From Escherichia phage Baret: 64,000 nt of DNA. The DNA is taken from the sequence record OR896834.1; one strand, given 5' to 3'. A program made the translations under genes and the position numbers. Position 1 is the first letter of the stretch, and the number at the start of each line of letters is the position of its first letter. Shown piece after piece: positions 1 through 28,841 of the stretch. Below the pieces are notes generated by a model. That model worked only from the letters and a program-made list of their open reading frames with translations. It ran no database searches and was not told the origin of the DNA.

Positions 1-2721
1 AGGCATAAACTTATAAGGAATTGGCATACACTCGATTTTACAATAGGTTCTGTACCAGTCTACAATATTTTCAGTGTTCATATCCTTACCAATACCCATC
101 ATACCAAGATACATTCTAGCATATTTTGGGTTAGCACTCTGACCTGTTTTAAGGAAGAAGTCCTTCTTCTTACCTTTCAGAGCTTCTATGAATGGTTTGA
201 TAGTGACGTTTGAACACTTCTTAATATCTTCCCAAAACATCTCGTGCATTTTATGGAAGAATGCCGCTCGATCATTAGGTTTATCCTTGATATATTGTTC
301 AACATGCTCAACTGTTACATCTTTAATAGACTCAAGATGATAATAGCGAACAAGAAGTAGTTTAGCTTCATACGCATCCGCATGACGTGGAGCACAATAA
401 TCAGGAGTTGAATGTAGAATAGCTTTGATTCGCTCTTCCATATATTCTTTCCCTGCACCTTCAATAGTTCCCCAGCTTTCGCTGAAAATATCAATAGTTG
501 CACCCTGATCAAGCAAGTAATAACGTAAAGTACTAGTATAATTTCTAGATTCCAGCTCTCTACGACGTGCATATAATTGCTGTGCTAACTCCAGCCAGCC
601 CTCATCAATATTATATTGTTCAGAACCTGCAGAGAATCCACTCGTAGATTTATCAATAAAATAATAGATATTCTGAGCACCACGGTCGCGCCTGATTGCT
701 TGAAAACGCATGTTTGGCGCTTGGTTACTGGTTCTAGTAATAACGAATACGTTATCAAAATAGTTGAAGTCAACCCCACTCGTTACGGATGGACTACATA
801 ATAAGCAATCAATTTGTTGATCAATCAGCTCATTAGTTGTGTAATCCAGAATACGTCTAATATCCACATCAGACGTAGAATTTGAGTGGATTTCCTTAAC
901 TAACGCACCCGTATTACGACGTAATGCCATACCCTTCTCATTCAGCTCATCAGGGGCACAATCAGATACCAGAATAGATTTCTCACCCATCTCTAGAGAA
1001 GTCTGAAGTGCAACCCAAATACTGGATTCATCAGGAAACTCATAAGCATGAGCTTTTGACAGCATTTTACGGTGATGATTATAAAATGCAACCGGTTTAT
1101 CAAACTCGATCAAAGAACCATATGCTTCAATTGTTTCTGCACTAATATCACCATCTGATAATATAATGATTTTTGCAGTTGCAAGAATATCCCGAAGAAC
1201 CTGAATACATTCACGACGTTGTTTAACAACCGGGGCGAATAGTAGGTCATTCATTACTGCATCACATTCATCTATAAAGATTGCATCAATTTGACCAATA
1301 AAACTCTTGAACTTATGCAAAGAGTGAATAGTTGTGGACATACGGTCAATAGCACCACGCTTAAAATTAAGCATATCTACAGACTTATCATATTGTCCTG
1401 CACTAAATTTCTTAGCATTGGAAGATACCAGTGCTCGAGTATTGGTAATTGCTAAGAAATTACCTTTAATAACTCTTGAATCTAACCAACGCACAACCGC
1501 TGTAGTTTTACCTGTACCTAGACTCGCTTTTACAAAAGTCATATAACCTTCTGGTGGCACAGTATTTAATTTCAAGAAGTTATCAGTCTCTAAAGAGTTA
1601 GTTTCTAGCTTTTTGAGTGGAATACCTTTTAAAACATCCGGTATATCACGTTTAGAATTATTAACAAATGCTTTTAGAGCCTGTTTACGACCATTATTAA
1701 AGTAGTCTTGAATATTACGACTATTATCTTTAGTTGCAATATATTCTGATAAGGCTGGACGGATTTCTTTTTCTAGCCATGCAAAATCAACACCATCCTC
1801 TAAAGCCCTGTGATAGAGTTTAGGAATAATACGTAGATACACTCCATCCTCAGCTTCTTCTAGTTCGCTGATGGTTTCTTCTACTTTATCAGAGGCAGCT
1901 TTTTTACCCTTAATTTGGTCGAGTAAAGAGTAGAACTCTTCTTTAAACTCACCTCTAGTTGTTTCATAGTCAACCAGATTATTGGGTAAATTTACTTTAG
2001 AACCCTTAACAAATACCAGACGTGAAGCACCCTCCGCTTTAAACGGATCTACTATACCATCGGTAAATAACGGATCTGCAAAATAATGGAGCTGTACGGA
2101 AGAGTAATAAGCTAAGTCGGCAATATCAAAGCCATACTTTTGTCTACTACTTTCGTTGATAGATGTAAATAAGAATTTGATTTGACCCTGAGTTACTTTA
2201 ACATTAGATTCTAGTATTAAGTGCATTCGGATACCTGGTTTTAGCCCAGCCGAAGATGATGCATGAGCGATAAACCCTGCATCAAGAGGAAACATATCCT
2301 CACTAATACTATTTAACATTCTAATAATATGTCGAGCCATGCCAACAAGATCAAACTTGTTACAACCACCTGTATCTACAATACCATCCACGTCCATTGC
2401 AATTATATGACTTGGGTTAGATACATTAAAGTTGCCCTTCTTACGTCGCACATTATTTTTAGGTGCAAGACATCGACCTCGTACCGCAACGATATGAGGG
2501 TCAGACGTTAAACGTCTCATAAGAGGAAGCATTTCTACTAGGGTTTGAGGATCAACTTCGTCAATTACATCAAACTTGAAGGGCATTGAAGCTGGTTTAC
2601 CTTCAGGATGCTTTGAGGAAAATCTTTTAGCAAAAAGATAATCTTCTGCTTTAACTTCTCGCCAATTGCCTGTGGCTAAATCGCGATGAAATCCTGCATG
2701 ACCTTGTAGGATTGAAAACAC
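1..2721 (-). CDS. putative primase/helicase-like replication protein, partial (C-terminus beyond window start)
   Basis: Absent from ORF track because the stop lies outside the window; hand translation from GTG 2719-2721 (AGGAG 2729-2733) appears open to the window start (stop-freeness not exhaustively verified); Walker A GTGKTT (~1504-1518) in frame, FIDECD Walker-B-like motif, N-terminal AMDVDG acidic primase-like motif. Confidence 0.55.
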   Translation of the reverse strand, partial: MFSILQGHAGFHRDLATGNWREVKAEDYLFAKRFSSKHPEGKPASMPFKFDVIDEVDPQTLVEMLPLMRRLTSDPHIVAVRGRCLAPKNNVRRKKGNFNVSNPSHIIAMDVDGIVDTGGCNKFDLVGMARHIIRMLNSISEDMFPLDAGFIAHASSSAGLKPGIRMHLILESNVKVTQGQIKFLFTSINESSRQKYGFDIADLAYYSSVQLHYFADPLFTDGIVDPFKAEGASRLVFVKGSKVNLPNNLVDYETTRGEFKEEFYSLLDQIKGKKAASDKVEETISELEEAEDGVYLRIIPKLYHRALEDGVDFAWLEKEIRPALSEYIATKDNSRNIQDYFNNGRKQALKAFVNNSKRDIPDVLKGIPLKKLETNSLETDNFLKLNTVPPEGYMTFVKASLGTGKTTAVVRWLDSRVIKGNFLAITNTRALVSSNAKKFSAGQYDKSVDMLNFKRGAIDRMSTTIHSLHKFKSFIGQIDAIFIDECDAVMNDLLFAPVVKQRRECIQVLRDILATAKIIILSDGDISAETIEAYGSLIEFDKPVAFYNHHRKMLSKAHAYEFPDESSIWVALQTSLEMGEKSILVSDCAPDELNEKGMALRRNTGALVKEIHSNSTSDVDIRRILDYTTNELIDQQIDCLLCSPSVTSGVDFNYFDNVFVITRTSNQAPNMRFQAIRRDRGAQNIYYFIDKSTSGFSAGSEQYNIDEGWLELAQQLYARRRELESRNYTSTLRYYLLDQGATIDIFSESWGTIEGAGKEYMEERIKAILHSTPDYCAPRHADAYEAKLLLVRYYHLESIKDVTVEHVEQYIKDKPNDRAAFFHKMHEMFWEDIKKCSNVTIKPFIEALKGKKKDFFLKTGQSANPKYARMYLGMMGIGKDMNTENIVDWYRTYCKIECMPIPYKFMP

Positions 2722-3292
2722 AACAATACTCCTGTGTTGAAAATGAAATAAGTTTTCTTTAGGACTATTCAGAAAGAATAGAACAACTGTTACTGTCAAT
2801 TTCTCAACAAATTAATCGCAAATACTGAAGGGGGGTGGCAACTTCCCCTTTCACGCTACACTGCCGCTTCACTATACCGCACAAATCCTTGAGGATGGCC
2901 GCTAAGCCAGATTTGCTCACCTAATGCTTCATGTACTAGCTCATACTAGATGCAGTATACCTTACGTCATCACTTCTCAGAGTTTTTCACTCTTCCCGTC
3001 TCACTTCACAACCACCTCACACTAGGTTGCTTCGAGGCCTTACCAGGGTTCCTACGGGATGTAGATCGCTAAGTATTCTATTAACTATTTGTTTAAAAAC
3101 TAACACGTAACAGTTAAAACAACCCTTAATGGGGCAGCCTAACTGTTCCGTATCGCGGATTGTAAACAAGAAAAATTAGCAAAATCAATTTTTACTAATG
3201 TCTCTCAATTCAATATAAATATTATATCAAGATTTTGGGCATCCTGCAAGTAAAATTTTCCGGATGGTGCTATCATTGGTCTTGAGTACGGA

Positions 3293-3320
3293 TAAAACCG
3301 AGCCAAAATGACTCGGTTAT
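3293..3320 (-). terminator. hairpin plus T-run after the 65-aa ORF (minus strand)
   Basis: minus-strand CCGAGTCATTTTGGCTCGG followed by TTTT. Confidence 0.45.
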
Positions 3321-3325
3321 GTGGA

Positions 3326-3523
3326 TTAGACGCTTAAAATACTTCTAATCTCTTCTATATACTTACCTACTTTTTTAGCATCTACTTTACTTAGTTTTCC
3401 TATATCAAAATCAGGATCAGTAAACATTCTAGCTATCTCTATCTCTAGAGACTTACTAATTTTCCCGGTAGTATTCCACTTAGAAATCTTACCTTTTATT
3501 TTCCAAAATTCCTTATTCATCAT
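3326..3523 (-). CDS. hypothetical protein (65 aa)
   Basis: ORF track; co-directional tight operon. Confidence 0.4.
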   Translation of the reverse strand: MMNKEFWKIKGKISKWNTTGKISKSLEIEIARMFTDPDFDIGKLSKVDAKKVGKYIEEIRSILSV

Positions 3524-3905
3524 TTAGGCCTGGAACATAAATCCCAACACGGTTTAATTGTTCTTTAGCTTCTTTGAGAATATCTGGAGTGTACTCCCAA
3601 ATATCATCTTCTACCTGTAAAAGATGGGGCGAACAACCGTCATCAGGCACACGACATATGGCCAAACCACGTGGATGGAATATAGAGAAGTTTAGGGCAA
3701 CAATTAAACCCATAGCAGACAATTCATTCCAATCCAATTCCCATTCCCTAGCGTAGCCTGATAGGAAAACACCAACACAGGGATCATCTATTTGCTGCTC
3801 TGGAAAAGTGAAGGAGGCTTGTCTTACCCCCAACCAACGTTGTAGCAGCTTCTCAGCACGCTTCACCAAACTAGGATCAATCTGACGCCAATATACTTGT
3901 TCCAT
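3513..3905 (-). CDS. hypothetical protein (130 aa), paralog of adjacent 142-aa ORF
   Basis: ORF track; shares ...WxELDxMGLxxALN...YxPGL pattern with 3915-4343 product. Confidence 0.5.
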   Translation of the reverse strand: MEQVYWRQIDPSLVKRAEKLLQRWLGVRQASFTFPEQQIDDPCVGVFLSGYAREWELDWNELSAMGLIVALNFSIFHPRGLAICRVPDDGCSPHLLQVEDDIWEYTPDILKEAKEQLNRVGIYVPGLNDE

Positions 3906-3914: not shown

Positions 3915-4343
3915 TTAAGCAGTTAAACCTGGGATCATATACCCGAAATGGCGAAGTTTCTGAATCCCCTCATTCACTTCTTCCGGTGAGTAAGACCAAC
4001 CATAACGTTCATTAACCTGAAAACCAGGAGATTCACTAGTTTTATAGTTAACAACTAGGCGATGCTTAGCAGGCATAAACAGCTTATAGTTTAACGCAAA
4101 AACTAAGCCCATTTCGTCTAACTCTTTCCAGCCCACAATCTCTTCAAGACCATCCTCTACCTGCACAATTAAACCAATACAGGGGGCCTCATCAATATCA
4201 TCCTTAAAAGCAAAGGAGATTTCGTTATTCTCACACCATATTTTCAAAGAGTTAATAGCCTCATTATACAGGCTAGCTGGGAGAGTACGCCAAAAGTTAA
4301 CCAAAATTGGGTTAGCTTCTTTAGAGAATACATTATTGAACAT
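3915..4343 (-). CDS. hypothetical protein (142 aa), paralog of adjacent 130-aa ORF
   Basis: ORF track; tandem duplicate of 3513-3905. Confidence 0.5.
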   Translation of the reverse strand: MFNNVFSKEANPILVNFWRTLPASLYNEAINSLKIWCENNEISFAFKDDIDEAPCIGLIVQVEDGLEEIVGWKELDEMGLVFALNYKLFMPAKHRLVVNYKTSESPGFQVNERYGWSYSPEEVNEGIQKLRHFGYMIPGLTA

Positions 4344-4345: not shown

Positions 4346-4852
4346 TTACACCTTAAATTGTTGTAAGGATTTACACATTTCAATATCTGGGCTAAATTCT
4401 AGCATATAGCTAACAGCTTTTAAATCTTGAAGATTTATCCCAGTCCTACCGTTGACTATAACCGTTGGATACTGATACATCATAGCACCAGCATCATCAA
4501 GCACACACCAATGTTTGAGCTTATGCTTTTCAACGAAACGGAGAACAGAATTACCTCTAGATAGCCCACCCCCAGTAAAATCAGTTGTACCAAGAAAACG
4601 ATCGATAAGACCTAATCCGGTCATAATCTGAACGTTCTCCATCTCATTCCTGACAGAGAACCATGAGGATACTCCAACAATCATTATCGGAGAAGGACGA
4701 ATAAAATCCTGAAAAGCCTTGAGAAGCGGTTTGAAAACCCAGTCACTTCCAAAGAAAATCTTTTCATTATCAGGTGCATGATGATGGGAGATGCTCGAAT
4801 TGAGCACCCCATCAATGTCTAGAAAAATAATTGGAGTATTACTTATTTCCAT
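4346..4852 (-). CDS. HAD-superfamily phosphatase-like protein
   Basis: N-terminal IFLDIDGVL (DxDG motif I of HAD hydrolases); 168 aa. Confidence 0.5.
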   Translation of the reverse strand: MEISNTPIIFLDIDGVLNSSISHHHAPDNEKIFFGSDWVFKPLLKAFQDFIRPSPIMIVGVSSWFSVRNEMENVQIMTGLGLIDRFLGTTDFTGGGLSRGNSVLRFVEKHKLKHWCVLDDAGAMMYQYPTVIVNGRTGINLQDLKAVSYMLEFSPDIEMCKSLQQFKV

Positions 4853-21207: not shown

Positions 21208-22019
21208 ATATTCATAAATTAGAGAACAGCGAGCCGATTACGCTGAACTTGTCTTAATGTAAGATGCGTCAAGCACTAAGATTCGTTGAATAGAGTCGGT
21301 GGGTTAGTTGTAAAACTAGTACACAGGGGGCGGCAATCCCGGTTAGTGGCTAGAACGTGTAAAATGAGGCGTCTGAAACCTCTCCCCTAAACTCTTCTCT
21401 AATTTATAAATAGTGGGGTGTGGAAATCACTTATGTAGTAACACTGCCGTCCTAGTATAATTGGTATTATCAAGCCGTAACTGGTGGAAGATGTAGGTTC
21501 GAATCCTACGGTCGGTAAGAACTGGATAACTGATGCTTTTAACGTAAAAGCTTCCGAGGTTAGTTGCGCACTGCCTAAACCACGCGGTAGTTGGTTCCAG
21601 ACTAACCAACCAGTCTGCTGAATAGTTTTATTACGATTTAACTATGCCCAGGCTAAAGAAGAACTTTAGAAGGTATTCTAGGGTAGTGAAGTTCTTTCTC
21701 CATATCGGAGTAGTTTTTCAAGCTATCCACAAAGTGGGAAATGCTGACATGAGAGATGTCACTAATGGTGCACAATAGCACAGGTAATTCGCGATAACTC
21801 CTGTTGAGTAGCAGCAAAAGGTGGGAAGTCATGACCCCAAGCCTAACCGAGTCCTCAATATACCGCAGGACATAACCACTAAGTCACCCTGACTTAAACT
21901 GGAAAATAATAGACGTTACCGTATTTTGTCTTGAAATACTTAATGAGTGAGACTTATGACTCTCCCGGTATCGTCTGTATTTTTAAGAGTTTTTACGAGA
22001 GTTCTTAAAAATACTTAAA

Positions 22020-22094
22020 CGGGGTGTAGTCTAAGGGATAGGCAGGAGTCTTCTAAATTCCTTTATGCAGGTTCGAATCCTGTCACCTCGGCCA
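22020..22094 (+). tRNA. tRNA-Arg (anticodon TCT)
   Basis: Hand-folded: 7-bp acceptor, anticodon loop CTTCTAA, T-arm GCAGG-TTCGAAT-CCTGT, encoded CCA. Confidence 0.8.
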
Positions 22095-22128
22095 ATTTTA
22101 TTAACTGTAACTAAAACAAAGGAAATAT

Positions 22129-23076
22129 ATGTTTAATACTAAAAATATGAAAGAACTAACTTCTGAGCAGAAAGTAATTCGTACTATTAAACGTTGGGGG
22201 ATTGGTGCTGTAGTTGGTTTAGCAGGTTTAATCCTAGCTTTTAATTCATATACTATTGTTTCTGATGGTACGGTTAAAACCCAAACATTTCTTGGTAAAG
22301 TAGATCCTAACCCAGTATTACCTGGTTTCCATCCTGTAAACCCATTTGCATCTTTCGATACTTTTAGTACAAAAGATATTGCTGTAAAATTAGATAAACT
22401 TCAGGTTCCTAGCCAGGATAAGTTTAAATCCACTGTTGACCTGACTGTTATGTTGCAGTTTGATGGTTCTAAGGCACCGATTAACCGTATTAATGCAGGT
22501 ACTCAGGATCAAGCATTAGACAAATATGTAACTGAAAAATTACTGTCTACTATTCGTGAGTTTGGTAAGTCTGTACCTAAAGCACAAGATTTATTTGATG
22601 CTAAAATTCAGGCTCAATTGCAAACTGCAATTCAACAGGAAGTTGAAGAGTATGCACGCCCATATGGCTACACAGTTAAGCAGGTGTTTCTTCAGGATAT
22701 TACTTTGCCACCAGTAATCATGGAACAGGTACAGAATACCAAAGTTCGTGAAGAGCAAGTTAATGCTGCAAAAGCTGAACTGGCTCGCGTTGAACAAGAA
22801 GCTCAGCAGAAAGTTAAACAAGCAGAAGCAGACCGTGAAGCTCGTAATAACCAAGCTATTGCTAACGAACGCGACGCAGATGCTAAACTGTATGCAGCTA
22901 AGAAAGAAGCTGAAGCTAACGCCGCGCTGCAACGTACCATTACTCCTGAGATGATTCGCTGGAAGCAACTAGAAGTTGAAATGATTCGTGCTCAGAAGTA
23001 TCAAGGTGGTGTACCGCAGACTGTGGTTGGCACTGGTTACGATGGCCAGATGATTATGGATATGCGTAATAAGTAA
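22129..23076 (+). CDS. SPFH/band-7 (stomatin/prohibitin-like) membrane protein
   Basis: 315 aa; N-terminal TM helix, SPFH-like core, long Ala/Glu/Gln-rich coiled coil. Confidence 0.65.
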   Translation: MFNTKNMKELTSEQKVIRTIKRWGIGAVVGLAGLILAFNSYTIVSDGTVKTQTFLGKVDPNPVLPGFHPVNPFASFDTFSTKDIAVKLDKLQVPSQDKFKSTVDLTVMLQFDGSKAPINRINAGTQDQALDKYVTEKLLSTIREFGKSVPKAQDLFDAKIQAQLQTAIQQEVEEYARPYGYTVKQVFLQDITLPPVIMEQVQNTKVREEQVNAAKAELARVEQEAQQKVKQAEADREARNNQAIANERDADAKLYAAKKEAEANAALQRTITPEMIRWKQLEVEMIRAQKYQGGVPQTVVGTGYDGQMIMDMRNK

Positions 23077-23100
23077 TATCCACGCGTAATATTCGAAGTA

Positions 23101-23133
23101 AGCCCTGTGTTTCCTGGAGAGCGCAGGGCTTTT
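23101..23133 (+). terminator. intrinsic terminator after SPFH gene
   Basis: AGCCCTG...CAGGGCT hairpin followed by TTTT. Confidence 0.6.
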
Positions 23134-23173
23134 CTGTATAATGTATTTATACAACTAACTAGGGGATCAAATA

Positions 23174-23692
23174 ATGACTGTTGATGAACTAACAGAACAT
23201 CTCTTATCTAGAGGGTTTGATACAGATAAATATCACTGCTGGCTAAGCCCAGAAGGATGGCTAACAGTCCCATTGTATGACTTCTCTGGGATGTTGAGAG
23301 GCTATCAGACTTATAATCCTTCTGCTCCAAAAGGTCATGGTAAATGCCCCTTTGAAGCTAGATATTTTACTTATTCTACTACACAGTGTGTATGGGGACT
23401 AGAAACTCTCAATGGAGACGAAAAAGTAGTATTGATTGCTGAATCTGTATTTAAGGCAGTTGCGTTACATAACGCTGGTTATCCAGCCCTGGCAATGTTG
23501 GGTTCTTCCCCCGGAAAAGCGTTGTTAAAGCAATTGAAATTACTACCTTTTAAATTGGTAGCTGTTGGGGATAATGATCCTGCTGGTGAAAAATTTGCTA
23601 GACAATTAAATGGATTTGTTTCTCCTGTAGATGTGGATGAGATGTCTACCGAAAACTTGAAAAATTTTCTTGCTATGAAGCTAAATTTCTAA
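23174..23692 (+). CDS. Toprim-domain protein (172 aa)
   Basis: VVLIAESVFKAV...LVAVGDNDPAGEKFA matches Toprim E...DxD core. Confidence 0.5.
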   Translation: MTVDELTEHLLSRGFDTDKYHCWLSPEGWLTVPLYDFSGMLRGYQTYNPSAPKGHGKCPFEARYFTYSTTQCVWGLETLNGDEKVVLIAESVFKAVALHNAGYPALAMLGSSPGKALLKQLKLLPFKLVAVGDNDPAGEKFARQLNGFVSPVDVDEMSTENLKNFLAMKLNF

Positions 23693-23698
23693 TATAAT
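23670..23698 (+). promoter_or_regulatory. early promoter driving tRNA genes
   Basis: -35 23670-23675, -10 23693-23698; overlaps 3' end of Toprim ORF. Confidence 0.55.
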
Positions 23699-23712
23699 AT
23701 ATTTATAAATTC

Positions 23713-23801
23713 GGAAGAATAGCATAACGGTATTGCAGCAGATTGCTAATCTGTCGGTTTGAAATATAGCCTTGTGGGTTCGATTCCCACTTCTTCCGCC
23801 A
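23713..23801 (+). tRNA. tRNA-Ser (anticodon GCT)
   Basis: Acceptor GGAAGAA/TTCTTCC, loop TTGCTAA, long variable arm, T-arm GTGGG-TTCGATT-CCCAC, CCA. Confidence 0.8.
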
Positions 23802-23807
23802 AATTCT

Positions 23808-23885
23808 GGTTCTCAAGCTCATATGGTATGAGCACCCGGCTCATAACCGGAAGGTACGTAGGTTCGAATCCTCGGGGAGCCACCA
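23808..23885 (+). tRNA. tRNA with CAT anticodon (Met/fMet/Ile2 type)
   Basis: 7-bp acceptor (2 GU), D-stem GCTC/GAGC, loop CTCATAA, CCA; T-stem imperfect. Confidence 0.6.
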
Positions 23886-24101
23886 ACTTAATTAGGGGAT
23901 TACAAGTGGAATTATACATAGTTTATGTTGTGTTTATTCAAGATAGAGAATACCCTGATGAATATAAAAAAGGATATAGGTTAGCCAGAGCTACTTCTGA
24001 AGCCCAAGCTATGGATAAAGTGGCAGATTATATGCTTACAGTAGAAAACGTACACTACATCGACTACCTTGAAGCCTCAAAAGTAATTGACTAAACTACA
24101 C

Positions 24102-24178
24102 GGGGGTGTAATCGAATTGGCATAGGTACTGGACTTAAAATTCAGGTTTTGTGGGTTCGAATCCCACCACCCCTACCA
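24102..24178 (+). tRNA. tRNA-like gene, anticodon loop CTTAAAA (TAA, Leu-type) with short variable loop
   Basis: 7-bp acceptor, AC stem CTGGA/TTCAG, T-arm GTGGG-TTCGAAT-CCCAC, CCA; type-I architecture unusual for Leu. Confidence 0.55.
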
Positions 24179-24353
24179 AATTAAGGAAATAAGATGTATA
24201 GACACCCACCTCCGCCAACACGTCGTTCTAGAGAAGTTATCCTCATGGAATTGACTAAAAACTTCAAGGCAACTCTTGAGGATAGAGATTTAGGCACGGA
24301 TGAAGACATTGATTTTATTTGTAGACTATTAAAGATGAAACTGGAGAAACAAC

Positions 24354-24560
24354 ATGGCTAATCCTGAAATTACCATGCAACGATTCATGGCTAAAGGCAT
24401 GATAGCTGAGGCAGGCATTGAACAAGAAGTAAAAAGTTATTACGAACAGATTAAGGGTATTGTAGACTCGGCTAAAAACACCGGAGAAAAAGAACATGGT
24501 GCGGCAATTATGGCTATAACTCTTATTAGTCTAGACTTGGCCGAAGAATCTGGAGTTTAG
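24354..24560 (+). CDS. hypothetical protein (68 aa)
   Basis: ORF track. Confidence 0.35.
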   Translation: MANPEITMQRFMAKGMIAEAGIEQEVKSYYEQIKGIVDSAKNTGEKEHGAAIMAITLISLDLAEESGV

Positions 24561-24590
24561 CTCCTCCAAACAGAATTTTTAAAAATGTAC

Positions 24591-24620
24591 TTGCCTTTTG
24601 CCTTAAATTTCTGATATAAT
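24591..24620 (+). promoter_or_regulatory. early promoter (TTGCCT-18-TATAAT)
   Basis: -35 24591-24596, -10 24615-24620. Confidence 0.55.
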
Positions 24621-24650
24621 AATTATATAAATTGATGGAGGAGTTAACGA

Positions 24651-24926
24651 ATGCAAAATCGTGTTGTAGCAACTGGTATTGAAAGTGCAATCTGTAAATC
24701 CTGGGAAGGCTGGGAAGGTGAGATTGAATGGCTTTATTTCTATGATGTAGAACTTCTACCGGAAGTTAAAGCTAAATGTATTGAAGCTGGCATGGCTCCA
24801 GATGCAAAAGCTGATATTGATATTTTAATGTCTGAACTTAAAGGTCGTGTAGTTACCGTTAGTAATGAGGGCGAAGAAGTTTTCGAACTTCCATTTTCCT
24901 TAACTGTCACTCCTAAGTTCGACTAA
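24651..24926 (+). CDS. hypothetical protein (91 aa)
   Basis: ORF track; SD GGAGGAG. Confidence 0.45.
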   Translation: MQNRVVATGIESAICKSWEGWEGEIEWLYFYDVELLPEVKAKCIEAGMAPDAKADIDILMSELKGRVVTVSNEGEEVFELPFSLTVTPKFD

Positions 24927-24962
24927 CTAATACAGCACTGAGCAAGTTCTTTAAAATTTGAC

Positions 24963-24991
24963 TTGCTCAGTGCCTTAAAACTTGATATAAT
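24963..24991 (+). promoter_or_regulatory. early promoter driving tRNA genes
   Basis: -35 TTGCTC 24963-24968, -10 TATAAT 24986-24991. Confidence 0.55.
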
Positions 24992-25007
24992 AGTTATCTA
25001 ATTCGGA

Positions 25008-25057
25008 AACATATTTAAAAGTGTTTAAACTAGTATTTGAATACTTTTAAATATGTT
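25008..25057. repeat. 14-bp inverted repeat between promoter and tRNA-Tyr
   Basis: AACATATTTAAAAG ... CTTTTAAATATGTT, arms ~22 nt apart. Confidence 0.6.
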
Positions 25058-25145
25058 GGATTAGTATCGTAGAGGTAGCGAAGCAGACTGTAAATCTGCC
25101 GACTCGGAAGGGTCTCGGGTGGTTCGACTCCATCATCCAACACCA
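25055..25145 (+). tRNA. tRNA-Tyr (anticodon GTA)
   Basis: Acceptor GTTGGAT/ATCCAAC, AC stem GCAGA/TCTGC loop CTGTAAA, long variable arm, CCA. Confidence 0.85.
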
Positions 25146-25152
25146 AATTTAA

Positions 25153-25229
25153 GTCCTGTTAGACAAACTGGTAAAGTCACTACCCTTTCAAGGTAGGGTT
25201 TGCGGGTTCGATCCCCGCACAGGACGCCA
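25153..25229 (+). tRNA. tRNA-Glu (anticodon TTC)
   Basis: Acceptor GTCCTGT/ACAGGAC, AC stem CTACC/GGTAG loop CTTTCAA, T-arm GCGGG-TTCGATC-CCCGC, CCA. Confidence 0.85.
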
Positions 25230-25238
25230 ATTAATAAT

Positions 25239-25309
25239 TGGGGTACGCATAGGTTGCAAATGGGCCTCCAAAACCCATGAAAAGGTTTCGAATACCTTTA
25301 CCCCTGCCA
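25239..25309 (+). tRNA. tRNA-Trp (anticodon CCA), U1-U72 mismatch
   Basis: 6/7 acceptor pairs, loop CTCCAAA, T-arm AAGGT-TTCGAAT-ACCTT, CCA. Confidence 0.6.
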
Positions 25310-25315
25310 AAATTT

Positions 25316-25390
25316 GCACCTTTAGCTGAGATGGATTAGCGCTTGCCTGAAGAGCTTGAGAGGTTCGTTCGATACGAACAGGGTGCACCA
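25316..25390 (+). tRNA. atypical tRNA-like gene (possible Phe GAA; non-canonical T-arm)
   Basis: Acceptor GCACCTT/AGGGTGC pairs and CCA present, loop CTGAAGA possible, but T-arm does not fold canonically. Confidence 0.35.
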
Positions 25391-25407
25391 AATTGAAGGA
25401 GATGCTG

Positions 25408-25677
25408 ATGCATCCTGAAAACTTCTTTATTTACTGCGCGGATAAGTTGCTGAAACGTAGAATTAACAAAGTCTATCATTATCGTGTTAGTCAACAGCCT
25501 TATGTATACGCTTTTGACGGTGATCACATTTCATTAGAACAATTATCTTGTGATTACATGATATTGAAGAACTTTGACGAGACGAAGATCTCAAGCGTTC
25601 ACAATCGACAGAATCCATTAACGTGGAAATATAAGAAAAAGAAAGGCATCAAATTCTTAAAAAATGTAGTTGCTTAG
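25408..25677 (+). CDS. hypothetical protein (89 aa)
   Basis: ATG 25408 with AAGGAG 6 nt upstream; track TTG 25393 trimmed. Confidence 0.4.
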   Translation: MHPENFFIYCADKLLKRRINKVYHYRVSQQPYVYAFDGDHISLEQLSCDYMILKNFDETKISSVHNRQNPLTWKYKKKKGIKFLKNVVA

Positions 25678-25698
25678 TTTCCAAAAGTTCTGTATAAT
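25670..25698 (+). promoter_or_regulatory. early promoter (TTGCTT-17-TATAAT)
   Basis: -35 25670-25675, -10 25693-25698. Confidence 0.55.
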
Positions 25699-25727
25699 AA
25701 ATACATAAATTGAACTGGAGAAGCAAC

Positions 25728-25946
25728 ATGACAGAACAAGAATTGAATGAACGTAAGCTAGTAATGCTTCGCTTACTAAATATTTTCTCTGGTATGGACG
25801 GTGGTGGTGATTTCTTAAGACTTAAGGTATTTACAGAAACTGCCGAAGGTGATGCAATCTCTAGAGTTATTAGGAACATGGGAAGCCTGCTAGATGTGGC
25901 TGGAGTAGCTACTCAATACACCTTAGATAATCCTACTGGAGAATAA
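25728..25946 (+). CDS. hypothetical protein (72 aa)
   Basis: ATG 25728 with SD GGAGAAG. Confidence 0.4.
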   Translation: MTEQELNERKLVMLRLLNIFSGMDGGGDFLRLKVFTETAEGDAISRVIRNMGSLLDVAGVATQYTLDNPTGE

Positions 25947-26138
25947 ATGAGAAGATTAGTTAGATTTAAGTGTTGTAGTTCTGAACATATTTTCACACAT
26001 CTTCGTGAATTTAAAATGTGTGATTGTGGTAAATCAGGCTATGACTCTGGAAATGGGTTCTACACCCGTACTCTAGGGAACTTCAATGATTTAGAATTTG
26101 AAGATCTCGAAAAACAAGATAAACCGACCGTTGGCTGA
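25947..26138 (+). CDS. small Cys-rich (zinc-finger-like) protein
   Basis: 63 aa; CC...CDC cysteines; 3' end overlaps tRNA-Cys. Confidence 0.4.
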   Translation: MRRLVRFKCCSSEHIFTHLREFKMCDCGKSGYDSGNGFYTRTLGNFNDLEFEDLEKQDKPTVG

Positions 26139-26200
26139 ATGGCTTAGGCGAAGGATTGCAAATCCTTTTTATGTGAGTTCAAATCTCATGCGGTCGTCCA
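26125..26200 (+). tRNA. tRNA-Cys (anticodon GCA)
   Basis: Acceptor CGACCGT/GCGGTCG, AC stem AAGGA/TCCTT loop TTGCAAA, T-arm GTGAG-TTCAAAT-CTCAT, CCA. Confidence 0.8.
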
Positions 26201-26221
26201 AATTACTAAAGGAAAGAAGTA

Positions 26222-26740
26222 GTGCATACAAAAGTTTTTGATAGTTTGGTAAAGAAAGGCGTTGTTACTAACGAGCCCTTCTATATAACCGCAGAACTAA
26301 TCCAGAGATTTATGGAAGAATATATAAATCTTTCAGGAACCAATGGTAATACCAAAAAGAATACAAATACTATGTATTCGAGAAAACTTGCTGCACTTTC
26401 CTTTATAAAGTTTAAGCAGGAAAATAAACTTCCTATTTCTGAAGGTTTTGTATACTGTATTAGTAATCCTGCATGGAAAAATCAGTATAAAATAGGTATG
26501 AGTCAAAATCCAAAAGAGAGATTAGCTCAATATCAGACTTATTCCCCTTATAGGGATTATAAGTTAGAGCATTGGTCTTTTTGGTTTGACAAACGAAAAG
26601 GTGAAAAACTAATTCACCAGTATTTCAAAGATTTAAAAGAACATGAGTGGTTTAGTATAAATTCTAGGGATCTTAGTAAATATCTAGAACGTATTAACTC
26701 TAGTTCTGACTTATATGGTTCCTTAGCTCTAATTGGTTAG
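26222..26740 (+). CDS. T5orf172-type GIY-YIG-like nuclease-domain protein
   Basis: 172 aa; GFVYCISNP...YKIGMSQNPKER motif; true start may be internal Met; last ~24 nt overlap tRNA-Asn. Confidence 0.55.
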   Translation: MHTKVFDSLVKKGVVTNEPFYITAELIQRFMEEYINLSGTNGNTKKNTNTMYSRKLAALSFIKFKQENKLPISEGFVYCISNPAWKNQYKIGMSQNPKERLAQYQTYSPYRDYKLEHWSFWFDKRKGEKLIHQYFKDLKEHEWFSINSRDLSKYLERINSSSDLYGSLALIG

Positions 26741-26794
26741 AGCGGCATCTTGTTAAGTTGAGGGTTGCTGGTTCGAATCCAACAGGAACCGCCA
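26717..26794 (+). tRNA. tRNA-Asn (anticodon GTT)
   Basis: Acceptor GGTTCCT/AGGAACC, D-stem GCTC/GAGC, loop TTGTTAA, CCA; AC stem has 2 mismatches. Confidence 0.7.
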
Positions 26795-26896
26795 AATTCT
26801 GTGTAGAGTTAAGTAAACCGGTAGCCAACCAGCTATCATTGCTGACATCGAATTCAGCCATAGATACCATTTTCGTTAATAACTGAGGAAACAAGC

Positions 26897-27082
26897 ATGT
26901 CCAAGAATGTAATTGCGCAGCTAGAAGTTCATCGTGATAGCACTATCAACAATATTGAAGTTGAGAAGAAATACATAGAAGAACTTAAACATGATATACT
27001 GGTAAGTCTCAACCGTCTTAATGTACGAAAAGAGTTTCTTAAAGAACTTAATGCAGCTATTGAAAAACTCAAAGCTGAGTAA
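26897..27082 (+). CDS. hypothetical coiled-coil protein (61 aa)
   Basis: ORF track. Confidence 0.35.
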   Translation: MSKNVIAQLEVHRDSTINNIEVEKKYIEELKHDILVSLNRLNVRKEFLKELNAAIEKLKAE

Positions 27083-27091
27083 ATGAATTAT

Positions 27092-27168
27092 GCGACCGGG
27101 GCTGGCTTGGTAATGGTACTCCCCTGTCACGGGAGAGAATGTGGGTTCAAATCCCATCGGTCGCGCCA
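27092..27168 (+). tRNA. tRNA-Asp (anticodon GTC)
   Basis: Acceptor GCGACCG/CGGTCGC, AC stem CTCCC/GGGAG loop CTGTCAC, T-arm GTGGG-TTCAAAT-CCCAT, CCA. Confidence 0.85.
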
Positions 27169-27185
27169 AATAAGGTAGGTTAGCT

Positions 27186-27344
27186 ATGGAACGTAGGGAG
27201 TTTACTCCAGAAGAGATAGAGCAGATAAAAGAATCTGCTATGAAAAATGCTAGAATATCTCTGTCACTGGAAGGTATCATTATTAGTGATGTAAACTTTG
27301 AAAAAATCAAAGCCATAGCTGATGAACTGGAAAAAGTAATTTAA
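27186..27344 (+). CDS. hypothetical small protein (52 aa)
   Basis: ATG 27186 with SD AAGGTAGG; below ORF-track cut-off. Confidence 0.3.
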   Translation: MERREFTPEEIEQIKESAMKNARISLSLEGIIISDVNFEKIKAIADELEKVI

Positions 27345-27345
27345 T

Positions 27346-27421
27346 ACATCCATAGCTCAATGGTTAGAGCTACCGCCTCTTAAGCGGAGGGTTCTAGGTT
27401 CAAGTCCTAGTGGGTGTACCA
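27346..27421 (+). tRNA. tRNA-Lys (anticodon CTT)
   Basis: Acceptor ACATCCA/TGGGTGT, D-stem GCTC/GAGC, loop CTCTTAA, T-arm CTAGG-TTCAAGT-CCTAG, CCA. Confidence 0.75.
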
Positions 27422-27447
27422 AATTAAACTAGCACGAGAAATATGCT

Positions 27448-27795
27448 ATGATTAATGCTAAAGAAGAATTGTTACTTGCCCTAAAGAATACTAATTCTGA
27501 AGTTAAGTGTATTAAGATAGAATTCGGTTATTATGGGGATAAAGAAGTTTGGGTATTACCCGTAGGTTATACAGAAAAAGATATTGAAGATTTTCTAGAT
27601 AATCTAGACTTTAAATATGATTCTGGTTTCGGCGGACAATTGCTTTATGGTAACGTATGGTTTACCGATGGAACTTGGTTAGAACGTGGTGAATATGATG
27701 GTTCTGAATGGTGGGAATATAAGACTACACCAGCAATCCCAGAAGAATGCCGAACAATTAATGGTGAAGTAGATCGTACTTTACTATTAAATTAA
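27448..27795 (+). CDS. hypothetical protein (115 aa)
   Basis: ORF track. Confidence 0.45.
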   Translation: MINAKEELLLALKNTNSEVKCIKIEFGYYGDKEVWVLPVGYTEKDIEDFLDNLDFKYDSGFGGQLLYGNVWFTDGTWLERGEYDGSEWWEYKTTPAIPEECRTINGEVDRTLLLN

Positions 27796-28187
27796 CAAAA
27801 TTTCAGTGCAGAACACGGAGCTAGCAATTCGGAAGTGCTGACTCATGATAAGCTGCCTATGTACTTGCGAAGCGGTCGTGTCCAAGACTCGGACTCTTGC
27901 ACTGAAAACAATCAAACATTCTAGCGTGGTTGATGGGGAAACCAGCTTGGCGAGGGCAGAAGCTCGTTCGATTCGAGTGAAAGAATGGTTCTCGTAAGTC
28001 CGCACAAGTGATAACAGGTTCGAGTCCTGTCTAGAATGACACTATAAAGTTTACTTATTATGTAGGTTCCGATAGACCGGCGGGTCTATTCTGGCATTTA
28101 AGAGAGGTCTCGCAAACTTCTTTGTCAGCCGTGGGGTTGGTAGCCTCCAGGTGGCCTACACAATAAGTAAATTTATTAAAAATTCAT

Positions 28188-28216
28188 TTGCTATTCTGCT
28201 TTATTATCTGTATAAT
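28188..28216 (+). promoter_or_regulatory. early promoter (TTGCTA-17-TATAAT)
   Basis: -35 28188-28193, -10 28211-28216. Confidence 0.6.
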
Positions 28217-28248
28217 ATATTTTATAAAGTGAAGAGAAGGAAAGCAAA

Positions 28249-28407
28249 ATGAAACACAAGATAGCTCAAGTTTTTATGGCATTATGGTGTATACCAATAG
28301 CTATAACAGCATTTAATCTAGATACTTTTACTATAGAAGAAAAATGTATCGGATTAGTTAGCGGTTTTAGTATGCTGGGCTTATCTTTGCTGTGGTTAAA
28401 GAAATAA
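28249..28407 (+). CDS. small hydrophobic membrane protein (52 aa)
   Basis: ATG 28249 with SD GAAGGAAAG after promoter; below ORF-track cut-off. Confidence 0.35.
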   Translation: MKHKIAQVFMALWCIPIAITAFNLDTFTIEEKCIGLVSGFSMLGLSLLWLKK

Positions 28408-28411
28408 TATT

Positions 28412-28489
28412 CTCCGTGTAGCTCAGTTTGGCCAGAGCGTTTCGTTTGGGGCGATAGGGTCGGGGGTTCAAATCCTCCCACGGAGACCA
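28412..28489 (+). tRNA. tRNA-Pro (anticodon TGG)
   Basis: Acceptor CTCCGTG/CACGGAG, D-stem GCTC/GAGC, loop TTTGGGG, T-arm GGGGG-TTCAAAT-CCTCC, CCA. Confidence 0.8.
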
Positions 28490-28495
28490 AACAAT

Positions 28496-28573
28496 TGCGG
28501 GTTAGATCTCTGGTAGAGATCGCTAGTCTCATAAGCTAGAAAGAGGTAGGTTCGATTCCTGCACCCGCTTCCA
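28496..28573 (+). tRNA. tRNA with CAT anticodon (Met/Ile2 type), U1-U72 mismatch
   Basis: D-stem GATC/GATC, AC stem CTAGT/GCTAG loop CTCATAA, T-arm GTAGG-TTCGATT-CCTGC, CCA. Confidence 0.7.
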
Positions 28574-28593
28574 CTTTAATAGAGGATTTCGAA

Positions 28594-28761: not shown

Positions 28762-28762
28762 T

Positions 28763-28841
28763 AGATCGCTAGCTCAATAGGTTTAGTAGCATCCGACTTT
28801 TAATCGGAAGGTTCTGGGTTCGAGTCCCAGGCGATCTACCA
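28763..28841 (+). tRNA. tRNA-Lys (anticodon TTT)
   Basis: Acceptor AGATCGC/GCGATCT, AC stem TCCGA/TCGGA loop CTTTTAA, T-arm CTGGG-TTCGAGT-CCCAG, CCA. Confidence 0.85.

What the first reader, a model, noticed from the sequence alone, without database searches (positions are those of the whole stretch)
2722..3325. 600-nt ORF-free leader upstream of the primase/helicase-like gene
Between the terminator of the upstream operon (~3293-3320) and the GTG start of the replication ORF (2721) lies ~570 nt with no ORF, including GC-rich patches and a GAAGGGG/CCCCTTC hairpin (~2830-2855). In a tightly packed phage genome this much non-coding DNA suggests a regulatory RNA, a long structured 5' UTR or a replication-origin-associated element.
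Basis: seen in the sequence. Interest (0 to 1): 0.4.

Follow-up and report, generated by a model that had tools for sequence, protein, structure and literature searches.

The report
Conserved structured RNA upstream of D2
The roughly 600-base gene-free stretch ahead of this T5-like phage's replication helicase gene encodes a large folded RNA that all enterobacterial T5 relatives keep and that no RNA family in Rfam 15 matches; its job is unknown but probably concerns the replication genes.

Summary
Window 2722-3325 has no ORF of 60 aa or more, and its short ORFs are not conserved. It lies between a terminator (3318-3291) and the GTG start (2721) of the T5 D2 helicase / "origin-binding protein" homologue.

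The window is a Tequintavirus (99% identical to Salmonella phage FGS017). On the minus, D2-sense strand, a conserved early sigma-70 promoter (3249-3221) drives a ~490-nt leader. This leader holds a ~335-nt multi-helix RNA (3116-2784).

The RNA is closed by a 37-49-bp, G-U-rich long-range helix.

Ten sequences from nine lineages (Escherichia, Salmonella, Yersinia, Klebsiella, Pectobacterium, Providencia and Proteus phages) keep this architecture with different sequences. Covariation tests beat all shuffles. The sense strand folds better than the antisense strand in every lineage tested.

Rfam 15 matches nothing. The T5 reference annotation leaves the stretch blank. Iterons and a GC-skew switch, which would mark an origin, are absent.

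The function is inferred. It is most likely an RNase III-processed, protein-recognised leader of the replication operon, or an excised non-coding RNA.

The parts
3291..3318 (-). Intrinsic terminator of the upstream operon (AACCGAG...CTCGGTT followed by TTTTAT).
   Evidence: Sequence read. Annotated as a terminator at the homologous place in HASG4 and T5. The simple scan did not flag it because the T-run is short.
3221..3249 (-). Conserved early sigma-70 promoter: -35 TTGCAG (3249-3244), 17-bp spacer, extended -10 TGaTATAAT (3229-3221). The predicted start is near 3215.
   Evidence: Read. The homologous 75 bp are annotated 'promoter' in T5 NC_005859. TTGCAA/TTGCCA/TTGACA-17-TATAAT sits at the same place in Providencia, Klebsiella, Pectobacterium and Proteus phages.
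3159..3188 (-). Possible second promoter (TTGATT-18-TACAAT); doubtful.
   Evidence: Promoter scan. In 51 phage records an 88-97-nt insert separates its two hexamers, so it may not be a real promoter.
3117..3153 (-). Conserved 5' leader motif ACGGAACAGUUAGGCUGCCCCAU, with a small hairpin at 3140-3117; it lies outside the closing helix.
   Evidence: Nearly identical in lineages A, B and E, in My1 and DU_PP_V, and recognisable in the Klebsiella lineage. Hairpin predicted.
3072..3116 (-). 5' arm of the long closing helix P1.
   Evidence: RNAalifold. Duplex analysis in 10 sequences from 9 lineages. Anchored shuffle test: z = -6.3, 0 of 300 shuffles as good.
3059..3069 (-). 5' strand of helix P3 (GCG-AU-CUACAU).
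   Evidence: Collinear in 10 sequences from 9 lineages, 99% paired, with several pair types per position; 0 of 2000 shuffles reach it. Compensatory A-U to G-C changes occur within group A.
2995..3058 (-). 5' sub-domain (helix CCCGU/ACGGG enclosing a GGUAA hairpin and a GCAACC/GGUUGU hairpin).
   Evidence: RNAalifold with one compensatory pair. An analogous sub-domain with a GGUAA motif is present in lineages B and E.
2971..2993 (-). Hairpin P6 (2993-2979) followed by the purine-rich joiner GAGAAGUG.
   Evidence: One compensatory pair. A hairpin followed by UGAGAAGUG recurs in My1, DU_PP_V and the Klebsiella lineage.
2918..2952 (-). Helix CAUCUA/UAGGUG with an inner hairpin.
   Evidence: RNAalifold. 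The equivalent helices in group B+E carry compensatory changes.
2880..2917 (-). Element P8: a 7-bp helix, a 3'-side internal loop, and the invariant hairpin GGCU-UAGC-GGCC (CTTAGCGG at 2906-2899).
   Evidence: Hand alignment of 13 sequences from 9 lineages: 91% paired against 61% in shuffles, 0 of 500 shuffles reach the covariation score, and slid controls reach at most 50%. A covariance model built on it finds exactly one hit in the 64-kb window, here (E = 9e-5).
2853..2861 (-). 3' strand of helix P3 (GUGUAG-CGU).
2828..2850 (-). Terminal hairpin P9 (AAGGGG/CCCCUU, loop AAGUUGCCACC).
   Evidence: A compensatory G-C to U-A change occurs within group A. An equivalent hairpin with loop motif GUUGCCA / GUGACCA is present in My1, DU_PP_V and the Klebsiella lineage.
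2784..2826 (-). 3' arm of the closing helix P1.
   Evidence: Within group A, one-sided changes here switch between G-U and A-U and keep the pairs.
2765..2781 (-). Conserved trailer hairpin CUAUUC-UUUCU-GAAUAG, followed by UCCUAAAGAAA.
   Evidence: Invariant in groups A, B and E. A shorter version, CUAUC/GAUAG, is in the Klebsiella lineage.
2719..2733 (-). Shine-Dalgarno AGGAG (2733-2729) and the GTG start (2721-2719) of the D2 / origin-binding-protein helicase gene.

Best explanation
The gap is the ~490-nt 5' leader of the mRNA for the replication-gene operon, which starts with the D2 helicase gene. A conserved early host-type promoter transcribes it on the window's minus strand.

Most of the leader folds into a conserved ~335-nt RNA domain:
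- a long (37-49 bp), A-U/G-U-rich closing helix P1;
- inside P1, a ~210-nt multi-branched core closed by helix P3;
- within that core, the invariant CU-UAGC-GG hairpin element P8; between P3 and P1, the terminal hairpin P9.

Shown here: the structure, its strand, its conservation and its position.

Inferred: the element works at the RNA level and in cis. The closing helix is long enough to be a double-strand-specific RNase III substrate. Cleavage there would detach the leader and core from the D2 message and set its 5' end, which would then sit next to the conserved trailer hairpin. The core, whose sequence type travels with the D2 lineage, would be bound by a phage protein that tunes expression of the replication operon. 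A stable ~300-nt RNA may be released as a by-product.
For: - Identity and context. The window is a T5-like phage. The downstream gene is the D2 / T5.108 homologue with Pfam Herpes_ori_bp. The order terminator, promoter, RNA, D2 holds in all enterobacterial lineages, and no terminator was predicted between the RNA and D2 in the five lineages scanned.
- Structure within group A. 19 sequences give 131 predicted pairs, 5 with compensatory double changes. One-sided changes between G-U and A-U or G-C are common, 10 of them in P1, and almost no pair is broken.
- Structure within group B plus phiR201. 28 of 134 pairs have changes on both sides, against 5.9 +/- 1.8 in shuffles (0 of 500) and at most 6 when the partners are slid.
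- Structure across lineages. P8 is 91% paired against 61% in shuffles, 0 of 500. P3 is 99% paired in 10 sequences from 9 lineages, 0 of 2000. With arms fixed by the P3 anchor, P1 scores z = -4.2 to -9.1 with 0 of 300 shuffles in 9 of 10 sequences.
- Core length. It is constant at 319-353 nt.
- Strand. P1 has 3-10 G-U pairs. The sense duplex is 10-23 kcal/mol more stable than the antisense duplex in 8 of 10 sequences. Whole-core folding and alifold energies favour the sense strand in every case. At the DNA level the arms are only 79% complementary over 19 nt.
- Link to the D2 lineage. The core type (A or B) follows D2 N-terminal identity. Between this phage and T5 the promoter and leader are 100% identical but the core only 59%.
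Against: - No transcript data were available, so the promoter, the read-through and any processing are all predicted.
- RNase III cleavage cannot be tested with these tools.
- An unconstrained search for the best long-range duplex in this A+T-rich region is no better than shuffles (5 of 36 as good). P1 therefore rests on comparative evidence only.
- P1 is weak in the Klebsiella lineage (z = -1.1).
- Leader pairing with the ribosome-binding site is not significant, so no simple translational switch is visible.
- Proteus phages have a perfect consensus promoter between the RNA and D2. There D2 need not depend on the leader, which favours an independent RNA.
- The hand alignments for P8 and P3 were fitted to the proposed pairs.
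Confidence: 0.4

Rival explanations
1. The core is an independent, trans-acting stable non-coding RNA. It would be excised from the leader at the long closing helix, much as ribosomal RNAs are cut from their precursors. It would act elsewhere, for example as a scaffold or decoy for a host or phage protein in take-over, replication or counter-defence. Its position before D2 would then be synteny only.
For: - The closing helix of 37-49 bp is far longer than is needed just to close a fold.
- Core size is constant and a few loop motifs are invariant: CU-UAGC-GG, GUUGCCA and GAGAAGUG.
- Proteus phages carry a consensus promoter for D2 downstream of the RNA and another upstream of it.
- The sharply bounded allelic core (59% identity) between 100%-identical flanks resembles a diversifying specificity module.
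- In Providencia, Proteus and Aeromonas phages the RNA or its P8-like motif lies 166 to about 1100 nt from D2.
Against: - No terminator follows the RNA in any of the five lineages scanned.
- The RNA is always on the D2 strand and directly upstream of D2.
- No stable RNA of this size from this locus turned up in the literature searched.
- No similarity to any host RNA or to any Rfam family.
Confidence: 0.3
2. The locus is, or is part of, the phage's primary replication origin. Transcription from the strong promoter would produce a G-rich RNA that stays hybridised to the template and primes or opens the origin, as in ColE1 RNA II, T4 oriF/oriG or the T7 primary origin. The adjacent D2 origin-binding-type helicase would act on it.
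For: - The adjacent gene belongs to the herpesvirus origin-binding-protein family, and D2 has been proposed as the T5 initiator (PMC3632103).
- The locus lies at 59.0-59.5 kb of the 121.75-kb T5 genome, about 49%. From my own memory of Bourguignon et al. 1976, first-round T5 replication starts mainly near the middle of the molecule. PMC3632103 cites that paper only for 'multiple internal origins'.
- A strong promoter is followed by a 28%-G+C stretch (3150-3249), and the transcript has G in excess of C.
- The core type travels with the D2 lineage.
Against: - There are no iterons or direct repeats, and the DNA-level inverted repeats are short or imperfect.
- The cumulative GC-skew minimum lies at the divergent PhoH/NrdD junction, ~5.5 kb upstream, and simply follows gene direction.
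- G-U-dependent covariation shows selection on the folded single-stranded RNA, which a persistent RNA-DNA hybrid would not need.
- No origin mapped to this locus was found in the papers searched.
Confidence: 0.12
3. The core is a metabolite-sensing riboswitch or another ligand-responsive leader that controls the replication operon.
For: - It is a large structured domain in a 5' UTR, directly upstream of the regulated genes.
- It has a multi-helix junction with purine-rich joiners.
Against: - Very few nucleotides are invariant across lineages, and the core is only 59% identical between close relatives. This is unlike ligand-binding cores.
- No terminator or ribosome-binding-site sequestering helix could serve as an expression platform.
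- No Rfam riboswitch model matches.
Confidence: 0.06
4. The feature acts at the DNA level (a mobile cassette with inverted ends or a protein-binding site array), or it hides a short protein-coding gene, or the apparent structure is chance in A+T-rich DNA.
For: - The core behaves as a swappable cassette between conserved flanks.
- Some GenBank records-50-aa ORFs here.
- The unconstrained duplex energy is not significant.
Against: - The pairing relies on G-U and is strand-asymmetric.
- It is single-copy: one P8 hit per genome, always at this locus.
- The ORFs are not conserved between lineages. Substitutions within group A fall in compensating helix positions.
- Covariation beats shuffled and slid controls.
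Confidence: 0.04

Closest known systems
RNase III processing stems that bracket structured RNAs (16S and 23S rRNA precursors) and RNase III sites in phage early mRNAs or bacterial leaders (T7 R-sites, lambda N leader, E. coli pnp, rnc and adhE leaders); comparison from established knowledge.
   Same: A long double-stranded helix is formed by sequences hundreds of nucleotides apart and encloses a folded RNA. It sits in a phage early transcript, upstream of the first gene of an operon. The helix is two or more turns long in most lineages tested.
   Different: Cleavage has not been shown. T7-type sites are simple hairpins of about 20-25 bp without a 260-nt structured insert. No sequence similarity was found.
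Large 'ornate' phage-associated non-coding RNAs (GOLLD, ROOL) and other large bacterial RNAs of unknown function.
   Same: A phage-borne RNA of more than 300 nt, multi-branched, purine-rich, kept by covariation, with no known function.
   Different: No match to their Rfam models at any threshold tried. It is smaller (~335 nt, against ~580 nt for ROOL and ~800 nt for GOLLD, sizes from my own knowledge). It sits in an mRNA leader of a virulent enterobacterial phage rather than near tRNAs in prophages.
Protein-binding translational operators in phage replication-gene leaders (T4 gene 32 pseudoknot, T4 gene 43 operator).
   Same: A structured 5' leader of a replication gene. Autoregulation by the encoded or a neighbouring protein is a plausible logic. 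The core type co-varies with the downstream gene's lineage.
   Different: Those operators are tens of nucleotides long and overlap the ribosome-binding site. Here the structure is ~335 nt, ends 61 nt before the start codon, and shows no significant pairing with the ribosome-binding site.
Transcription-primed origins: ColE1 RNA II, the T7 primary origin (tandem promoters plus an A+T-rich stretch), T4 oriF/oriG.
   Same: A strong promoter, an A+T-rich stretch, and a long, structured, G-rich transcript next to replication functions.
   Different: No evidence here for a persistent hybrid or for initiation at this site. The skew and repeat signals of an origin are missing.
Herpesvirus oriS/oriL bound by UL9, the family to which D2 is assigned.
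   Same: The neighbouring gene belongs to the UL9 / origin-binding-protein helicase family.
   Different: Herpes origins are near-perfect DNA palindromes with UL9 boxes. Here the DNA-level complementarity is poor, and pairing depends on G-U, so it is RNA pairing.

Membership tests
Any Rfam 15 family (4227 models, including RNase P, tmRNA, 6S, GOLLD, ROOL, OLE, HEARO, riboswitches and self-cleaving ribozymes) | A covariance-model match at or near the family's gathering score. | tested here: not met
   No hit at gathering thresholds in the window except tRNAs. At E up to 10 on 2500-3500 there is only noise, best E = 0.23 and 17 bits against a gathering score of 36. Nothing was found in this region in 11 loci from other lineages, including T5.
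RNase III substrate (rRNA-type processing stem or phage R-site) | A double-stranded RNA helix of about two or more helical turns. | tested here: met
   P1 has 30-47 pairs in 10 sequences from 9 lineages, or 36-49 with anchored arms. It is significant in 9 of 10.
RNase III substrate (rRNA-type processing stem or phage R-site) | Actual staggered cleavage by RNase III in vivo or in vitro. | not testable with these tools
   This needs rnc-mutant transcript mapping or an in-vitro cleavage assay.
Riboswitch | A highly conserved ligand-binding core across distant members. | tested here: not met
   The only motif found invariant across lineages is the 8-nt CUUAGCGG. The core is 59% identical between phages whose flanks are 100% identical.
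Riboswitch | An expression platform: an intrinsic terminator or a helix sequestering the ribosome-binding site. | tested here: not met
   No terminator-like site lies between the RNA and D2. Leader pairing with the ribosome-binding site is not better than shuffles.
Replication origin (iteron / DNA-unwinding-element type, or herpes-type palindrome) | Repeated initiator-binding sites or a DNA palindrome. | tested here: not met
   One 10-nt two-copy direct repeat only. The best long inverted repeat is 19 nt at 79% complementarity.
Replication origin (iteron / DNA-unwinding-element type, or herpes-type palindrome) | A compositional strand-asymmetry switch at the site. | tested here: not met
   The cumulative GC-skew minimum lies ~5.5 kb upstream, at the point where gene direction flips. 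There is no inflection at the D2 leader.
Replication origin (iteron / DNA-unwinding-element type, or herpes-type palindrome) | Mapped initiation of DNA synthesis. | not testable with these tools
   No mapping data were found. The 1976 electron-microscopy paper is not held in the library.
Small protein-coding gene or leader peptide | An ORF conserved in presence, length and frame among relatives. | tested here: not met
   The 50-aa ORF is 50 or 60 aa in group A and absent in group B. Single-base indels occur within the 38-aa ORF. Pfam finds nothing for the 50-aa ORF.
Conserved structured RNA (generic criterion) | Base pairs maintained by compensatory changes beyond phylogenetic and positional controls, on one strand. 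| tested here: met
   See for covariation, and for strand asymmetry.

The most novel reading that the evidence does not exclude
T5-like phages of enterobacteria all carry a previously undescribed class of large (~335 nt) structured RNA. It would be cut out of the replication-operon leader at a ribosomal-RNA-like processing helix. It would then work together with the D2 origin-binding-type helicase in starting phage DNA replication, for example as a lineage-specific RNA cofactor or primer that marks the origin. This would explain why its sequence type travels with D2 and why no DNA-type origin signals are seen.
Probability: 0.15. Interest if true: 0.85.

Novelty: new variant of a known kind. 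Interest (0 to 1): 0.62.

Why it matters
- T5 is a classical model phage, and how it starts DNA replication is still unknown.
- A large RNA fold kept by selection at the head of the replication operon, in several hundred sequenced relatives, gives a concrete and testable handle on control of that operon, and possibly on initiation itself.
- Newly found structured RNAs of more than 300 nt are uncommon (my own knowledge) and often point to new biochemistry.
- This RNA sits in easily manipulated E. coli and Salmonella phages, so genetics, RNase III mutants, probing and cryo-EM are all feasible.
- Practically, annotation pipelines currently either leave this stretch blank or fill it with spurious 30-50-aa 'hypothetical proteins'.

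Tried and rejected
- Rfam at gathering and permissive thresholds, on the window and on 11 related loci: nothing.
- blastn of the RNA against 5,426 complete E. coli genomes: no match, so it is not a copy or mimic of a host sequence detectable by sequence.
- A resemblance I noticed between ACAGAAC..CGGCU in the leader and the conserved RNase P region V: rejected. No RNase P model scores, and the order of elements differs.
- A weak C/D-box-like hit (UGAUGA/CUGA): rejected, because the motif is not conserved within group A.
- A leader hairpin competing with P1 (12-bp inverted repeat 3105-3116 / 3140-3151): not conserved in L026, L015, phiR201 or My1, so it is not proposed as a switch.
- Leader pairing with the ribosome-binding site: not significant.
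- Unconstrained long-range duplex energy: not significant. It was replaced by the anchored test.
- Origin signals (iterons, GC skew): absent.
- IMG/VR and metagenome pattern scans added only chance hits or more members of types A and C.
- The P8 covariance model finds nothing in Vibrio T5-like loci. Their upstream regions also look structured, but too few diverse sequences were in hand.
- The MAFFT alignment of P8 and P3 across lineages was unusable. Padded hand alignments were used instead.
- Literature searches found no description of this RNA. The supplement of the 10,000-candidate viral RNA screen (PMC10690425) is not held, so I cannot exclude that the region appears there as an unnamed candidate.
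Full report
**What the window is.** The stretch 2400-3700 is 99.2% identical to Salmonella phage vB_Si_CECAV_FGS017 and 98.4% to SPC35. It matches 523 T5-like phage records. The window also carries 22-23 tRNA genes at 21.4-31.9 kb, as T5-like genomes do. The ORF starting at GTG 2721 on the minus strand runs off the window's start. It is the homologue of T5.108 / D2, variously annotated "replication origin binding protein" or "5'-3' and 3'-5' helicase". It matches Pfam Herpes_ori_bp at residues 394-533. D2 is a characterised bipolar helicase that has been proposed as the T5 initiator (PMC3632103). Nothing here supports calling it primase-like: its N-terminal 300-400 aa match no Pfam family and no PDB sequence.

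**Checking the observation.** Between the stop of the upstream 65-aa ORF (3326) and GTG 2721, no ORF exceeds 50 aa on either strand. The upstream terminator hairpin lies at 3318-3291, and the GGGG/CCCC hairpin at 2850-2828. G+C rises to 0.42-0.48 over 2800-3100, against 0.28-0.37 around it. The short ORFs are not conserved: the 50-aa ORF is 50 or 60 aa in close relatives and missing in the T5/EPS7 group. The T5 reference annotates a terminator and a promoter here, and then nothing for 470 nt. One recent record fills the gap with three "hypothetical proteins" of 33-50 aa that belong to no PHROG family. The gap is one of 15 stretches of 250 nt or more without an ORF of 60 aa or more in the window, so it is unusual but not unique. 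A gap of 590-730 nt precedes the D2 homologue in most lineages examined, rising to 1.6 kb in an Aeromonas phage.

**Transcription signals (predicted only).** On the minus strand, TTGCAG (3249-3244), a 17-bp spacer and TGaTATAAT (3229-3221) form an extended -10 promoter. The homologous 75 bp are annotated as a promoter in T5. A near-consensus promoter sits at the same place in Providencia, Klebsiella, Pectobacterium and Proteus phages. A second candidate, TTGATT-18-TACAAT at 3188-3159, is doubtful. In 51 phage records an 88-97-nt insert separates its two hexamers. No terminator-like site lies between the promoter and D2. D2 is therefore predicted to have a ~490-nt 5' leader.

**The structure.**
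- I collected the region upstream of D2 from 32 IMG/VR loci, further phage records and a few metagenome contigs.
- Alignment shows nearly identical promoter, leader and trailer sequences, but a central ~330 nt that occurs in sharply different sequence types. Between this phage and T5 the promoter and leader are 100% identical, the core 59%, the trailer 89% and the first 900 nt of D2 86%.
- Despite this, every type folds the same way. The order is: long closing helix P1; helix P3 (3 bp, an AU bulge, 6 bp); a 5' sub-domain with a GGUAA hairpin; a hairpin followed by GAGAAGUG; a helix with an inner hairpin; element P8, which carries the invariant hairpin CU-UAGC-GG; the 3' strand of P3; a terminal hairpin P9 with loop GUUGCCA or GUGACCA; and the 3' arm of P1.
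- In the window these parts lie at 3116-3072 (P1 5' arm), 3069-3059 (P3 5' strand), 3058-2995, 2993-2971, 2952-2918, 2917-2880 (P8), 2861-2853 (P3 3' strand), 2850-2828 (P9) and 2826-2784 (P1 3' arm).
- The P1-to-P1 length is 319-353 nt in eight lineages.

**Is the structure more than chance?**
- Group A (19 sequences): 131 predicted pairs, 5 with compensatory double changes. Many one-sided changes switch between G-U and A-U or G-C, ten of them in P1, and almost no pair is broken.
- Group B plus phiR201: 28 of 134 pairs changed on both sides, against 5.9 +/- 1.8 in column shuffles (0 of 500) and at most 6 when partners are slid by 1-3 columns.
- P8, hand-aligned for 13 sequences from 9 lineages: 91% of cells paired against 61% in shuffles; 0 of 500 shuffles reach the covariation score; slid controls reach at most 50%.
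- P3 in 10 sequences from 9 lineages: 99% paired, with 2-4 pair types per position, 0 of 2000 shuffles.
- These two hand alignments were fitted to the proposed pairs, which inflates them somewhat. They are, however, anchored on an invariant motif and on collinear positions.
- A caution on P1: an unconstrained search for the best long-range duplex in the window's 700 nt is no better than dinucleotide shuffles (-37.1 against -34.2 +/- 3.2 kcal/mol; 5 of 36 as good). When the arms are fixed independently as the segments flanking P3, the duplex scores z = -4.2 to -9.1 with 0 of 300 shuffles in 9 of 10 sequences. The Klebsiella lineage is the exception (z = -1.1).
- A covariance model of P8 finds exactly one hit in the 64-kb window (2880-2917, minus strand) and one per enterobacterial locus.

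**RNA or DNA, and which strand?**
- P1 contains 3-10 G-U pairs per lineage.
- The sense-strand duplex is 10-23 kcal/mol more stable than the antisense duplex in 8 of 10 sequences.
- Core folding energy favours the sense strand in all eight lineages tested. Alifold energies are -115 against -94 (group A) and -112 against -86 (group B).
- The closing pair of the UAGC loop is an invariant U-G. On the other strand it would be a C-A mismatch.
- At the DNA level the P1 arms are 79% complementary over only 19 nt.
- Selection therefore acts on a folded RNA transcribed in the D2 direction.

**What it is not.**
- No Rfam 15 family matches in any lineage.
- Nothing similar exists in 5,426 complete E. coli genomes.
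- No iterons or tandem repeats are present.
- The cumulative GC-skew minimum lies ~5.5 kb upstream, at the divergent PhoH/NrdD junction, and tracks gene direction.
- Leader pairing with the ribosome-binding site is not better than shuffles.
- Only one motif, CUUAGCGG, was found invariant across lineages, which argues against a metabolite-binding riboswitch.

**Mechanism (inference).**
- The helix that closes the fold is far longer than folding requires and is kept at 36-49 bp. From established knowledge, a helix of that length is the kind of substrate RNase III recognises. The geometry, with complementary segments ~300 nt apart enclosing a folded RNA, is that of ribosomal-RNA precursor processing stems.
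- I therefore propose that the primary transcript is cut in P1. This would detach the conserved 5' leader and the core from the D2 message. The new 5' end of that message would lie next to the invariant trailer hairpin (2781-2765).
- The core's few invariant loops, and the way its sequence type travels with the D2 lineage, suggest that a phage protein recognises it.
- The data do not decide whether the element's main role is in cis, setting the stability or translation of the replication operon, or in trans, as a released ~300-nt RNA.
- For cis: it lies directly upstream of D2 on the same strand in every enterobacterial lineage examined, and no terminator was predicted between it and D2 in the five lineages scanned.
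- For trans: Proteus phages place a perfect consensus promoter between the RNA and D2.
- A role in transcription-primed origin firing remains possible. The locus lies at ~49% of the T5 genome, next to the putative initiator. From memory, early electron microscopy placed first-round initiation near the middle of the molecule. No sequence evidence here supports this role.

**Distribution.**
- The 604-nt query matched 535 phage records, nearly all of them enterobacterial T5-like phages (Salmonella, Escherichia, Klebsiella, Proteus and others). In the most divergent lineages (Klebsiella, Proteus, Providencia, Pectobacterium) only the promoter segment matched.
- Structure analysis shows the element in the Escherichia, Salmonella, Yersinia, Klebsiella, Pectobacterium, Providencia and Proteus lineages.
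- An Aeromonas phage has a weak P8-like hit within a 1.6-kb ORF-poor stretch.
- Vibrio relatives lack the motifs. They do have a ~600-nt purine-rich region upstream of the gene that favours the sense strand (-158.6 against -118.6 kcal/mol). It carries its own conserved motif, GUGACUAACCRACC, which resembles the P9 loop. Homology with the enterobacterial RNA is untested.

**Novelty.**
- I found no description of this RNA in the literature searches, in the T5 reference annotation or in Rfam 15.
- A 2023 screen listing more than 10,000 unnamed candidate viral RNA structures could include it. Its tables are not held.
- I rate it a new family within a known kind of feature: a conserved structured leader or non-coding RNA.
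- Confidence that the structured RNA is real is about 0.9. Confidence in any one mechanism is much lower.

Noticed in passing
L012:~1960-2060, L025, L034, L037:~955-1050 (absent from the window; the insertion point corresponds to about window 3170): An optional 88-97-nt insert, flanked by a TTTTTCTT repeat, sits between the conserved promoter and the start of the structured RNA. It is present once per genome, always at this locus, in 51 phage records. It splits the predicted second promoter.
   Followed up: partly
window 2784-3116 compared with L023 (T5), L026 and L028: The RNA core behaves as an allelic cassette. It is 59% identical between phages whose promoter and leader are 100% identical. 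L028 combines a B-type core with an A-type trailer, which implies recombination at the conserved flanks.
   Followed up: partly
L072:1205-1233 and L072:1935-1964: Proteus T5-like phages have two perfect consensus sigma-70 promoters, one upstream of the RNA and one between the RNA and the D2 start. About 210 nt of further non-coding sequence lies between them and contains a second CCUUAGCCG-like motif.
   Followed up: partly
L039:960-1672, L082, L083, L086; L038:1-1041, L084: Vibrio T5-like phages also have a ~600-nt purine-rich, strongly folding region upstream of their origin-binding-protein gene. It partly overlaps small annotated ORFs. Two genera share the motif GUGACUAACCRACC in a hairpin loop, which resembles the P9 loop of the enterobacterial RNA.
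   Followed up: partly
L041:19-1608: Aeromonas phage TS3 has 1.6 kb without any ORF above 55 aa upstream of its origin-binding-protein gene. It contains two CUUAGCGG hairpins, at about 497 and 742.
   Followed up: partly
window 49817-50818, 51062-51561, 54504-55649: Three further stretches of 0.5-1.1 kb have no ORF of 60 aa or more, and they lie outside the tRNA cluster. They were not examined.
   Followed up: no
window 3513-3905, 3915-4343, 4346-4852 (minus strand): The genes just upstream are two tandem DUF7415 paralogues and a protein with the HAD domain of 'Swiss Army Knife' RNA-repair proteins (PF18143). Several records label the latter Sir2.
   Followed up: no
window 21446-31899 (plus strand): A cluster of 22-23 tRNA genes lies on the strand opposite to D2. 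Rfam finds one weak extra tRNA-like hit at 21446-21517 that ARAGORN does not call.
   Followed up: no
L151:19200-19570 (PP429239.1, about 53.2-53.6 kb): The cumulative GC-skew minimum and the switch of gene direction coincide between the PhoH-like gene and the NrdD-like gene, ~5.5 kb upstream of the D2 leader. Two tiny ORFs are annotated in that gap.
   Followed up: no
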